A program made the translations under genes and the position numbers. A stretch of DNA of 64,000 bases from the human T2T-CHM13v2.0 reference genome, Homo sapiens, in the NCBI GenBank assembly GCA_009914755.4, contig CP068257.2:20768001-20832000 (forward strand), written 5' to 3'. Shown piece after piece: positions 8,562 to 9,311 of the stretch (positions are counted from its first letter, which is position 1; every line of letters starts with the position of its first letter). The notes under the pieces were generated by a model. That model was not told the DNA's origin and ran no database searches. It saw nothing but the letters and a program-made list of their open reading frames with translations.

Positions 8562-9311
8562 CTCTGTTGCATATTTATCTTTCTTTTCGTTTTTATGCTA
8601 TATAACCCTTTGTAAATGTAAAAACCATTCTCAGTTCTTAGGCTATACAAAACCAGGCTGCAGACTGAATGTACTTTACAGACTCTAGTTTGCCAACCCC
8701 TATAAAAATTAACAGTCATTTTAATCCACATTTCTAGATACCTCAATTTAGCTCAAAAAAGAAAGGCCAGTCGCTTCCTTATCATAAATACATATACATA
8801 TGTTTTGTATGTATACATATACGTATATTTATGAAAGGAAGCAACTGGCCTTTCTTTTACATATATGAAAATACATACATATACATGTAAATACATACAT
8901 ATATGTATGCATTTATATGTGTATATATACGCATTATGTGCATATATAGTATATATAACCTTGTTATAACAATGTAATATAAATATTATATGTGTATTAT
9001 ATATTTATTAAAACAAATGTATGTATTTATGTGTGTATATATATAAAGTGTATAGCCTCCTTATTATATGTATATATTTATTTATTTATAATAATGAGGC
9101 TACTGGCCTTTCTTTGTTGAGCTAACCTGAGGAAACTAAAAATATGGATTAAAATTACTGTTAATTTTTATAGGGGTTGGCAAACTATAGTCCATAAAGT
9201 ACATTCAGTCTGTAACGTGATTTTGTATAGCCTAAGAAATGAGCATGGTTTTTACATTTACAAAGGGTTATAAAGTGTAAAAACAAAAAGAAATACAAAT
9301 GTGCAACAGAG
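8562..9311. repeat. Large inverted repeat / palindromic element: arms of about 215 bp (8562-8776 and 9097-9311) around an AT-rich, (TATG/TACA)-rich core of about 320 bp
   Basis: The reverse complement of 9097-9311 aligns base-for-base with 8562-8776 at about 90% identity (ctctgttgcatatttatctttcttttcgttttta... versus ctctgttgcacatttgtatttctttttgttttta...). The inner arm ends share aaagaaaggccagt(c/a)gc, which is also repeated in inverted form at 8834-8857. Confidence 0.8.

What the first reader, a model, noticed from the sequence alone, without database searches (positions are those of the whole stretch)
8562..9311. 750-bp palindromic architecture: about 215-bp inverted arms (about 90% identity) around an AT-rich, (TATG/TACA)n-rich core, with a nested short hairpin
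The reverse complement of 9097-9311 aligns base-for-base with 8562-8776. The arms end exactly at ctctgttgca / tgcaacagag. The inner arm boundary motif aaagaaaggccagtcgc is present a third time in inverted form at 8834-8857, making an inner hairpin of about 20 bp stem and about 60 bp loop. The core is low-complexity TA/TG-rich sequence. Possible explanations: (a) a non-autonomous DNA transposon or foldback-like element with long TIRs that I cannot place in a known family; (b) a local inverted duplication; (c) a palindromic AT-rich repeat of the cruciform-forming type, which is associated with instability and translocation breakpoints in human. The adjacent (TA)n(TG)n microsatellite at 8487-8550 adds to the instability potential.
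Basis: seen in the sequence. Interest (0 to 1): 0.55.

Follow-up and report, generated by a model that had tools for sequence, protein, structure and literature searches.

The report
Old local inverted duplication, not transposon
The 750-bp "palindrome" is real, but it is an ordinary, tens-of-millions-of-years-old inverted copy of 229 bp of neighbouring DNA (part of a dead mini-transposon plus its flank) that was pasted into a TA-rich microsatellite in a primate genome, not a new mobile element or a fragile cruciform site.

Summary
Observation confirmed: 8562-8790 pairs gaplessly with the reverse complement of 9083-9311 (201/229, 88%; BLAST E 9e-69). The inner hairpin and the AT-rich core (20% GC) are also real.

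The right arm is not a unit. 9171-9380 is one full-length copy of an ancient ~220-bp hAT-type MITE (probably MER58 group; the name is from memory). A profile built from independent copies fetched from metagenome contigs covers it end to end, across the arm's outer end at 9311. Each arm holds MITE positions 1-~141 plus the same 88 bp of non-MITE flank, joined identically. The arms share 13 derived substitutions and a 4-nt insertion. So the right copy is the parent and the left copy is a truncated inverted copy.

The left copy sits inside a TA/TG microsatellite, whose two halves are the "adjacent microsatellite" and the "core". I found no TSD, no other copies, and no central symmetry. With a 292-bp spacer and 12% mismatch it is not PATRR-like.

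The likely origin is a reverse-oriented template switch at the microsatellite (inferred). A second, younger pair with a comparable layout lies at 45.5/48.0 kb in the same window. Overall the finding is ordinary and of low interest.

The parts
8487..8561 (.). Left remnant of the TA/TG microsatellite that received the inverted copy: (AT)19, a short (TG) run, then TATA/CACA-type sequence
   Evidence: TRF finds 8487-8524, period 2, 19 copies. GC is 14.7%. It is flagged as TA-rich low complexity, 8480-8552.
8562..8790 (-). Left arm: the derived, truncated inverted copy of 9083-9311
   Evidence: 201/229 gapless match to the reverse complement of the right arm. E = 8.6e-69. It is flanked on both sides by TA-rich low complexity.
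8562..8703 (-). MITE-derived part of the left arm (MITE positions ~1-141, minus orientation). It is truncated at 8562 and has no MITE 3' part upstream.
   Evidence: The nhmmer profile of real family copies hits 8701-8646 on the minus strand, model 2-56, E = 1e-3. No homology is found left of 8562.
8704..8790 (-). Non-MITE flank ('part B') copied together with the MITE piece
   Evidence: It aligns to 9083-9170 with the same junction to the MITE terminus. It has no hit in any of the 47 family loci or elsewhere in the window.
8826..8858 (+). Secondary short inverted copy ('M') of the left arm's inner end 8757-8790. Together they form a 34-bp stem with a 35-nt loop.
   Evidence: 32/34 match. 0 of 1000 shuffles reach the score. 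It shares the left-arm-specific bases at 4 sites where left and right arms differ (read directly). It appears as a side hairpin in both the MFE and centroid folds.
8791..9082 (.). AT-rich core: the right-hand part of the acceptor microsatellite tract (TACA/TATG/TTAT-type repeats). It now serves as the spacer between the arms.
   Evidence: GC is 20.5%. TRF finds arrays at 8861-8903, 8984-9010, 9017-9042 and 9061-9089. It has no palindromic symmetry beyond its composition.
9045..9068 (+). Probable short inverted copy (R') of the right arm's inner end. It forms a ~15-bp stem with 9086-9101.
   Evidence: 15/16 complementary. 2 of 1000 shuffles reach the score. It is present in both the MFE and centroid folds.
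9083..9311 (+). Right arm: the parental segment (88 bp of unique flank plus the first ~141 bp of the MITE)
   Evidence: Parent status follows from its continuity with the rest of the MITE.
9171..9380 (+). Full-length copy of an ancient ~220-bp hAT-type MITE (probably MER58 group). Its 5' end reads tAGGGGTTGGCAAACT and its 3' end AGCTTGCCAACTCGTC.
   Evidence: nhmmer gives 9172-9377 = model 2-220, E = 7e-6, and 9302-9377 = model 141-216, E = 7e-7. BLAST to real copies L042/L023/L002 covers query positions 36-207 in one piece, E = 3e-9, crossing the 9311|9312 arm end.
9312..9380 (+). 3' third of the MITE, which was not duplicated. It shows that the arm's outer end is a breakpoint inside the MITE.

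Best explanation
The structure is a local inverted duplication in a primate genome, and it is old.

**Ancestral state (inferred).** A TA/TG/TACA-type microsatellite tract lay directly upstream of a short unique stretch. That stretch was followed by an already decayed ~210-bp hAT-type MITE (9171-9380).

**Event 1.** A 229-bp segment (9083-9311) was copied in reverse-complement orientation and inserted into the microsatellite about 290 bp upstream. The segment holds 88 bp of flank plus MITE positions 1-~141. The copy is now 8562-8790. It split the microsatellite into the 'adjacent microsatellite' (8487-8561) and the 'core' (8791-9082).

**Mechanism (inferred, not shown).** I think a reverse-oriented template switch is most likely. 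Synthesis stalled or broke in the hairpin-prone TA-rich tract. The 3' end then invaded the complementary strand a few hundred bases away, with only 1 nt of microhomology at the outer junction. It copied 229 nt backwards and returned to the microsatellite. This is a switch-and-return event of the four-point / FoSTeS-MMBIR type.

**Later events.** Smaller events of the same kind added a 34-nt inverted copy of the left arm's inner end (8826-8858). They probably also added a ~16-24-nt inverted copy of the right arm's inner end (~9045-9068).

**Since then.** The two arms have diverged by 12% (K2P about 0.13). That implies roughly 30-65 Myr at 1-2.2e-9 substitutions per site per year, and this is a minimum if gene conversion occurred.

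**Present state.** The locus has no demonstrated function. As double-stranded DNA it should be a stable quasi-palindrome. If transcribed it would fold into a long imperfect dsRNA hairpin.
For: - **Real family.** A 22-mer from my recalled MITE consensus retrieved 47 independent loci from metagenome contigs, which are host contamination. Their copies align end to end with the 224-nt consensus at 72-85% identity. Termini read CAGGGGTYRGCAAACT...CCCTG, and one locus has a perfect 8-bp TSD, AATTAAAT.
- **MITE spans the arm end.** Profiles built only from those real copies cover window 9172-9377 (model 2-220), and separately 9302-9377 (model 141-216, E = 7e-7). The MITE therefore runs through the arm's outer end. 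Single BLAST alignments to real copies also cross 9311|9312.
- **Left arm is truncated.** It matches only the MITE 5' part (model 2-56), and nothing MITE-like lies left of 8562.
- **Shared flank.** Arm homology continues 88 bp beyond the MITE terminus into sequence with no match in the family loci or the window.
- **Shared history.** Against the family consensus, the arms share 13 derived substitutions and a 4-nt insertion (cagt) in 54 aligned positions. Private changes number 3 and 3. Independent family copies are only 70.5% identical to each other at the median, against 88% for the arms.
- **Microsatellite setting.** The derived copy is bounded on both sides by TA-rich low complexity, which covers only 0.93% of the window.
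- **Order of events.** M carries left-arm-specific bases and R' carries right-arm-specific bases (read). This fits later short-range copying from each arm.
- **Second case.** A younger inverted pair (45498-45945 / 48005-48452, about 97% identical) has a comparable layout. One copy is bounded by TA-rich tracts: 45361-45431 lies some 65 bp upstream across AT-rich sequence, and 45936-46004 abuts it on the right. The other copy lies in complex sequence 2 kb downstream.
- **Literature.** Reverse-oriented template switches create inverted repeats in human and ape genomes (PMC5453318). Their initiation points are enriched in AT-rich and poly(dA:dT) sequence (PMC7954356).
Against: - No outgroup or orthologous sequence could be obtained. 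The ancestral 'empty' microsatellite and the date are therefore inferred, not observed.
- Documented short-range template switches involve templates within ~100 nt and tens of nucleotides. This event needs 229 nt copied from 290-520 nt away.
- Microhomology at the outer junction is only 1 nt, and the inner junction is unreadable in AT-rich sequence. DSB repair with templated synthesis cannot be separated from a replicative switch.
- The microsatellite flanks could in principle have grown after the insertion.
- The middle of the window's MITE copy (about 9215-9300) aligns poorly to the family profile.
- The family name MER58 rests on memory.
Confidence: 0.87

Rival explanations
1. The 750-bp unit is a non-autonomous DNA transposon or foldback-like element with ~215-bp terminal inverted repeats, inserted as one piece.
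For: It has long inverted arms with sharp outer ends. Part of each arm is transposon-derived.
Against: - The right 'terminus' lies inside a MITE that continues for 69 bp.
- The MITE's true terminus (tAGGGG...) lies in the interior of each arm, facing the core, not at the outer ends.
- The 8 bp on either side (catatgat / aatgtaag) are not a target-site duplication.
- No further copies exist in the window or in 127 kb of related loci.
- The junction 22-mer has 0 hits in genome contigs and metagenome contigs, whereas a MITE 22-mer gave 47 hits in metagenome contigs.
Confidence: 0.03
2. Two copies of the same MITE family inserted independently, head to head, and only look like one palindrome.
For: About 141 bp of each arm belongs to a dispersed repeat family. 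A further copy lies only 0.8 kb away at 10108-10672.
Against: - Homology continues 88 bp past the MITE terminus with an identical junction.
- The arms share 13 derived substitutions and a 4-nt insertion.
- The arms are 88% identical, against a median of 70.5% among independent copies.
- The left copy ends at exactly the point where arm homology ends.
Confidence: 0.02
3. It began as a near-perfect palindrome with a very short spacer (left arm, 35-nt loop, right arm starting at 8826), formed by fold-back synthesis at a break. The centre later expanded by microsatellite growth and a partial duplication. On this reading it is a decayed PATRR-like, once cruciform-prone site.
For: - The 34-nt segment 8826-8858 has the position and orientation expected for the start of an original right arm.
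- AT-rich centres are typical of PATRRs.
- The whole region folds strongly as a single strand.
Against: - 8826-8858 is closer to the left arm (32/34) than to the right arm's inner end (28/33). It carries left-arm-specific bases, the opposite of what a direct duplicate of the right arm would show (read).
- This history needs an extra 258-bp insertion flanked by a 34-bp duplication.
- The core shows no residual symmetry.
- The arms are not AT-rich: 31-33% GC against a window mean of 35%.
- The present spacer and divergence are far outside the range that extrudes cruciforms (PMC1851657; PMC10164571).
Confidence: 0.07

Closest known systems
Genome-wide 'inverted duplicates' of mammals (arms 10-10,000 nt, spacer 0-1,000 nt; Chen et al. 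2017, PMC5398296)
   Same: It has two reverse-complementary arms with a spacer under 1 kb and lies in repeat-rich DNA. The arm divergence is consistent with a primate-age origin, like 79% of human intergenic inverted duplicates in that study. It forms a stable hairpin when folded as a single strand.
   Different: Nothing essential differs. 4.3 million such structures are reported for human, so this one is a long-armed but ordinary instance. Expression was not tested here.
Reverse-oriented template-switch mutations (four-point model; Loytynoja & Goldman 2017, PMC5453318; Walker et al. 2021, PMC7954356)
   Same: A nearby segment is copied in reverse complement and inserted, creating an inverted repeat. 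The acceptor/initiation site is AT-rich. The two small nested hairpins (34 nt and ~16 nt, with templates within 20-70 nt) are in the size and distance range of the published events.
   Different: The main event copied 229 nt from 290-520 nt away. This is longer and more distant than the catalogued short-range events, whose templates lie within about 100 nt. It sits between those events and FoSTeS/MMBIR-scale rearrangements. The mechanism is inferred from the product only.
Palindromic AT-rich repeats (PATRR11, PATRR17, PATRR22; PMC1851657, PMC4940405)
   Same: It is several hundred bp long, has palindromic architecture and contains AT-rich sequence.
   Different: PATRRs are near-perfect palindromes with central symmetry, and a 9-bp spacer plus four mismatches already abolishes extrusion. 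Here the spacer is 292 bp and asymmetric, the arm identity is 88%, and the arms have ordinary GC content. This locus should not be filed as a PATRR.
MER58-group hAT-Charlie MITEs (name recalled from memory; the family itself is documented here from 47 loci)
   Same: The sub-element 9171-9380 matches the family profile end to end. It has the CAGGGGTYRGCAAACT-type termini, and the family makes 8-bp TSDs.
   Different: Only this sub-element belongs to the family. The 750-bp palindrome as a whole does not, and the duplication breakpoints ignore the MITE's termini. The transposon machinery is therefore not implicated.
Closely spaced inverted Alu pairs (Lobachev et al. 2000, as summarised in PMC10164571 and PMC7999016)
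   Same: It consists of inverted repeats of a few hundred bp at 75-90% identity in primate DNA. The same rules apply for stability: instability falls steeply with spacer length and divergence.
   Different: Alu pairs arise from independent insertions, whereas this one arose by duplication. In this window the nearest inverted Alu pairs are at least 930 bp apart.

Membership tests
hAT-type MITE, probably MER58 group (applies to 9171-9380 only) | End-to-end similarity to independent family members, including both termini | tested here: met
   Profiles from real copies cover 9172-9377 = model 2-220 (E = 7e-6) and 9302-9377 = model 141-216 (E = 7e-7). BLAST to L027, L042 and other loci also matches.
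hAT-type MITE, probably MER58 group (applies to 9171-9380 only) | Terminal inverted repeats of the CAGGGGTYRGCAAACT ... AGTTTGCYRACCCCTG type | tested here: met
   Family copies show these termini. The window copy reads tAGGGGTTGGCAAACT ... AGCTTGCCAACTCGTC, which is decayed but recognisable.
hAT-type MITE, probably MER58 group (applies to 9171-9380 only) | 8-bp target-site duplication | tested here: inconclusive
   Locus L034 has a perfect AATTAAAT TSD, and L009 and L037 match at 6/8. At the window copy, aattttta vs tcatagga is not recognisable, as expected for a copy this diverged.
hAT-type MITE, probably MER58 group (applies to 9171-9380 only) | Match to the curated Dfam/Repbase consensus called MER58A/B | not testable with these tools
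   No Dfam or Repbase library is available. The name comes from my memory of the consensus. A literature search for sequence strings found nothing.
Long-TIR non-autonomous DNA transposon / foldback element (whole 8562-9311 unit) | Multiple dispersed copies of the same arm | tested here: not met
   No other copy exists in the 64-kb window or in 47 family loci totalling 127 kb. The junction 22-mer has 0 hits in two collections, against 47 metagenome-contig loci for a MITE 22-mer. Caveat: no mammalian genome database was available.
Long-TIR non-autonomous DNA transposon / foldback element (whole 8562-9311 unit) | Target-site duplication flanking the unit, with element ends that coincide with the ends of homology to anything else | tested here: not met
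   The flanks catatgat / aatgtaag are not a TSD. The right flank is the continuation of the MITE.
Palindromic AT-rich repeat (PATRR) | Near-perfect palindrome with central symmetry (no, or only a few-bp, spacer) | tested here: not met
   The arms are 88% identical. The 292-bp core has no palindromic signal above shuffles. PMC1851657 shows that a 9-bp spacer abolishes extrusion and instability.
Palindromic AT-rich repeat (PATRR) | AT-rich palindrome arms | tested here: not met
   The arms are 33.2% and 30.6% GC, against 34.7% for the window. Only the non-palindromic core is strongly AT-rich, at 20.5% GC.
Palindromic AT-rich repeat (PATRR) | Length polymorphism, deletions or translocation breakpoints in populations | not testable with these tools
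   No population or long-read data are available.
Local inverted duplicate made by reverse-oriented templated copying | Arm homology crosses a junction between unrelated sequence types at the same point in both arms | tested here: met
   The MITE terminus / flank junction at 8703|8704 and 9170|9171 lies inside a 31-nt stretch that is identical in both arms.
Local inverted duplicate made by reverse-oriented templated copying | Identifiable parent and derived copy | tested here: met
   Only the right copy continues into the MITE 3' third. The left copy is truncated and lies within the microsatellite.
Local inverted duplicate made by reverse-oriented templated copying | Microhomology at the switch points | tested here: inconclusive
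   The outer junction shares 1 nt (T at 8561, matching the complement of 9312). The inner junction fades into AT-rich sequence and cannot be placed.
Local inverted duplicate made by reverse-oriented templated copying | Empty (pre-insertion) site in an outgroup species | not testable with these tools
   No primate or mammalian genome alignments are available, and the locus-specific pattern found nothing in the collections.

The most novel reading that the evidence does not exclude
TA-rich microsatellites may act as recurrent acceptor or initiation sites for medium-range reverse-oriented templated insertions: hundreds of nucleotides copied from 0.3-2.5 kb away. Such a process would seed quasi-palindromes and long hairpin-forming loci in primate genomes. 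It would bridge the catalogued short-range template switches (tens of nucleotides, templates within 100 nt) and kilobase-scale FoSTeS/MMBIR events. In this single 64-kb window, both non-Alu local inverted duplications have one copy bounded by TA-rich tracts, which make up only 0.93% of the window. The tract in the finding also carries two further nested short inverted copies.
Probability: 0.3. Interest if true: 0.4.

Novelty: new member of a known kind. Interest (0 to 1): 0.15.

Why it matters
It matters mainly as a clean negative. A striking 750-bp 'palindrome' that could be mistaken for a new long-TIR transposon or a fragile PATRR is an ordinary, old inverted duplicate of the kind counted in millions in mammalian genomes.

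Its small positive value is as a worked example. An embedded dead MITE gives the polarity of the duplication (parent versus copy) without any outgroup. The result points to a TA-rich microsatellite as the acceptor site. A second, younger case with a comparable layout in the same window supports this. That association is cheap to test genome-wide and would extend what is known about template-switch mutagenesis at AT-rich sequence.

Tried and rejected
- **Locus-specific search.** The junction 22-mer GCCAACCCCTATAAAAATTAAC gave 0 hits in genome contigs and in metagenome contigs. No orthologue or second copy could be retrieved.
- **MITE 22-mer in genome contigs.** 0 hits. The same pattern worked in metagenome contigs.
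- **Direct BLAST within the window.** The window's two MITE copies do not detect each other, because they are too diverged. A family profile was needed.
- **Palindromy of the core.** Tested with gapped alignment against dinucleotide shuffles and not significant. I dropped the idea that symmetry extends to the centre.
- **Arm extension beyond 8562/9311.** BLAST's apparent extension to 8535/9339 is not significant.
- **Rfam.** Nothing in the whole window reaches gathering thresholds. At relaxed thresholds the inner hairpin 8755-8860 hits many unrelated miRNA hairpin models on both strands (mir-3688 at 40 bits vs 84 needed, MIR2606, mir-5014 and others). These are generic stem plus AT-rich loop matches, so I rejected them as homology.
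- **Literature search for consensus strings.** This attempt to verify the name MER58 found nothing. A search for 'MER58A' only returned papers that use the name in RepeatMasker output.
- **hAT-mediated origin.** I considered excision hairpins or alternative transposition. I rejected this because the breakpoints ignore the MITE termini and the MITE was already about 24% diverged when it was copied.
- **Assembly artefact.** Rejected because the arms differ at 28 sites.
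Full report
**Setting.** The window is primate DNA. A recalled AluY consensus finds at least 16 near-full-length Alu copies at 74-94% identity. GC content is about 35%. No Rfam family reaches its gathering score anywhere in the window.

**1.
- 8562-8776 pairs with the reverse complement of 9097-9311 at 189/215 (87.9%) without a gap. The pairing extends inward to 8790/9083, giving 201/229 (alignment).
- Within the 64-kb window the match has BLAST E = 8.6e-69.
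- The outer ends are sharp. Left of 8562 and right of 9311 there is no homology above what shuffled sequence gives.
- The third, inverted copy of the inner boundary exists. 8757-8790 pairs with 8826-8858 at 32/34 with a 35-nt loop, and 0 of 1000 local shuffles reach this score.
- A weaker mirror-image hairpin sits at the right boundary (~9051-9066 / 9086-9101, 15/16; 2 of 1000 shuffles).
- The core 8791-9082 is 20.5% GC and is made of TACA/TATG/TTAT-type repeats. It has no palindromic symmetry of its own.
- As single-stranded DNA the region folds at -217.9 kcal/mol against -67 for shuffles, z = -26. Both small hairpins appear as side branches.
- The 28 differences between the arms exclude an assembly or read-chimera artefact.

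**2. What the arms are made of**
- The motif GGGGTTGGCAAACT inside each arm reminded me of an old mammalian hAT-type MITE. I believe it is Repbase/Dfam MER58A (224 bp), but that name is from memory and could not be verified.
- To replace memory with data, I searched a 22-mer from the recalled consensus in metagenome contigs and obtained 47 loci, evidently host DNA (for example 'human oral metagenome').
- Their copies align with the recalled 224-nt consensus end to end at 72-85% identity. They have CAGGGGTYRGCAAACT...CCCTG termini. One locus has a perfect 8-bp target-site duplication (AATTAAAT) and others have decayed ones. The family is therefore a real hAT-like MITE.
- Profiles built only from these real copies hit the window in four places:
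  - 9172-9377 (model 2-220, E = 7e-6);
  - 9302-9377 (model 141-216, E = 7e-7, with the broader profile);
  - 8701-8646 on the minus strand (model 2-56, E = 1e-3);
  - a second, independent copy at 10118-10162 plus 10508-10666 (E = 2e-19), which is split by a ~345-bp insertion.
- Direct BLAST of 9171-9380 against real copies gives single alignments covering query positions 36-207 (E = 3e-9). These cross the arm's outer end at 9311|9312.

**3. Consequence for the architecture**
- The right arm is not a self-contained unit. It consists of 88 bp of non-MITE sequence (9083-9170) plus the first ~141 bp of a complete MITE, which continues to 9380.
- The left arm contains the same two pieces joined at the same base. 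The junction lies in a 31-nt stretch that is identical in both arms. The left arm stops at the point corresponding to 9311, and nothing MITE-like follows.
- The 88-bp flank has no match in the family loci or elsewhere in the window.
- Against the family consensus, the two arms share 13 derived substitutions and a 4-nt insertion in 54 alignable positions. Only 3 private changes occur in each arm.
- Independent family members are 70.5% identical at the median, whereas the arms are 88% identical.
- The two MITE pieces therefore descend from one insertion that was already old (about 24% shared divergence) when a segment spanning its 5' two-thirds and the adjacent flank was duplicated in inverted orientation.
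- The right copy is the parent, and the left copy is derived and truncated.

**4. Where the copy landed**
- The derived copy is bounded on the left by (AT)19(TG)n...CACA sequence (8487-8561). On the right it is bounded by the TACA/TATG-rich core.
- Removing 8562-8790 joins two stretches of the same kind of low complexity.
- Such TA-rich low complexity occupies only 0.93% of the window.
- The simplest reading is that the inverted copy was inserted into a pre-existing microsatellite lying just upstream of its template. On this reading the 'adjacent microsatellite' and the 'core' are two halves of one tract.

**5. Nested hairpins**
- At the sites where the arms' inner ends differ, the 34-nt copy at 8826-8858 carries the left-arm bases. 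It matches the left arm at 32/34 and the right arm at 28/33.
- The short copy near 9051-9066 carries right-arm bases at two of three such sites (read).
- Each therefore looks like a later, short-range inverted copy of its neighbouring arm end.
- This argues against the alternative history in which 8826-8858 is the remnant of an original short-spacer palindrome.

**6. Mechanism (inferred)**
- A switch-and-return of DNA synthesis to the complementary strand fits best. It would have started in the hairpin-prone TA-rich tract. This is the four-point template-switch model (PMC5453318) on a larger scale, or a small FoSTeS/MMBIR-type event.
- Published great-ape events are enriched for AT-rich and poly(dA:dT) sequence at the first switch point (PMC7954356).
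- The outer junction shows 1 nt of microhomology, and the inner junction is unreadable.
- Templated repair of a break in the microsatellite would give the same product. I cannot separate the two.
- The transposon machinery is not implicated. The breakpoints ignore the MITE's termini and the MITE was long dead.

**7. Age and present behaviour**
- The arm differences (15 transitions, 13 transversions in 229 sites) give a K2P distance of about 0.134. That corresponds to roughly 30-65 Myr at 1-2.2e-9 per site per year. This is an inference and a minimum if the arms exchanged sequence.
- A 292-bp asymmetric spacer and 12% mismatch put the locus far outside the range in which inverted repeats extrude cruciforms or stall forks. 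A 9-bp spacer plus four mismatches abolishes extrusion and instability of PATRR22 (PMC1851657). Widening an Alu inverted-repeat spacer from 12 to 100 bp lowers recombination 300-fold, and instability vanishes at 75% identity (PMC10164571; PMC7999016).
- The locus therefore fails the PATRR definition. Its arms are also not AT-rich.
- Human DNA is reported to hold 4.3 million inverted duplicates with spacers of 1 kb or less (PMC5398296). This is one of them, with longer arms than most.

**8. A second case in the same window**
- Self-comparison on the minus strand showed one other non-Alu inverted pair: 45498-45945 and 48005-48452, about 97% identical, 2.06 kb apart.
- Copy A is bounded by TA-rich tracts. 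The (TA)n tract at 45361-45431 lies some 65 bp upstream of it across AT-rich sequence, and 45936-46004 abuts it on the right. Copy B lies in complex sequence.
- The layout resembles the finding, with 2-3 nt of microhomology (AT) at the outer junction.
- Polarity cannot be proven here, but the parallel supports the idea that TA-rich tracts attract inverted templated insertions. This is the most novel reading the data allow. It is only moderately novel, because AT-rich initiation of template switching is already published.

**9. Verdict**
- The feature is real and is explained as an old local inverted duplication. Its arms combine part of a MER58-like MITE with unique flank, inserted into a microsatellite.
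- It is not a new transposon family and not a PATRR.
- Confidence in the duplication reading is about 0.87. Confidence in the specific template-switch mechanism is lower, at about 0.5-0.6.
- Interest is low (0.15).

Noticed in passing
window 45498-45945 and 48005-48452: A second, younger inverted duplication: about 445 bp, about 97% identical, with a 2.06-kb spacer. One copy is bounded by TA-rich tracts (45361-45431 lies some 65 bp upstream; 45936-46004 abuts it on the right). The other copy sits in complex sequence. The layout resembles the finding, with 2-3 nt (AT) of microhomology at the outer junction.
   Followed up: partly
window 10108-10162 and 10508-10672: A second, independent copy of the same MITE family (profile E = 2e-19). 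It is split by a ~345-bp insertion (about 10163-10507) that I recognise from memory as a MaLR/MLT1-type LTR in reverse orientation. The LTR identity was not tested.
   Followed up: partly
window 8755-8860: At relaxed thresholds the inner hairpin scores 30-42 bits on both strands against many unrelated miRNA precursor models (mir-3688, MIR2606, mir-5014, mir-3149, mir-1684). All are far below gathering scores. This is a generic 'long stem plus TATG-rich loop' resemblance, not homology.
   Followed up: yes
loci L027, L039/L022, L036, L043 (metagenome contigs): Some family members carry about 125-150 extra internal bases between the parts matching window MITE positions ~105 and ~132. This indicates a longer subfamily, which would fit my memory of a 341-bp MER58B.
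   Followed up: no
window 9621-9903 and 9905-9995: An Alu (about 85% identical to the AluY consensus, plus strand) lies 240 bp downstream of the MITE. Its poly-A tail is followed by a (CA)n then (GACA/GA)n microsatellite. Rfam's sub-threshold Metazoa_SRP hits at 9622-9905 are this Alu.
   Followed up: no
window 50111-50392 and 60882-61162: These are the two youngest Alu copies in the window (about 94% identical to the recalled AluY consensus). Many older copies are at 74-89%. Inverted Alu pairs in the window are never closer than 930 bp.
   Followed up: no
window 40256-40651: Overlapping direct self-matches (80-87% identity, offsets of about 120-220 bp) indicate a tandem array of units of roughly 120 bp.
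   Followed up: no
loci L034, L032, L013, L018, L001, L014: Six metagenome contigs from different samples carry the same genomic locus: the same flanks and the same MITE copy with the perfect AATTAAAT TSD. They differ by 1-3 bases, consistent with host (probably human) DNA recurring across metagenome assemblies.
   Followed up: no
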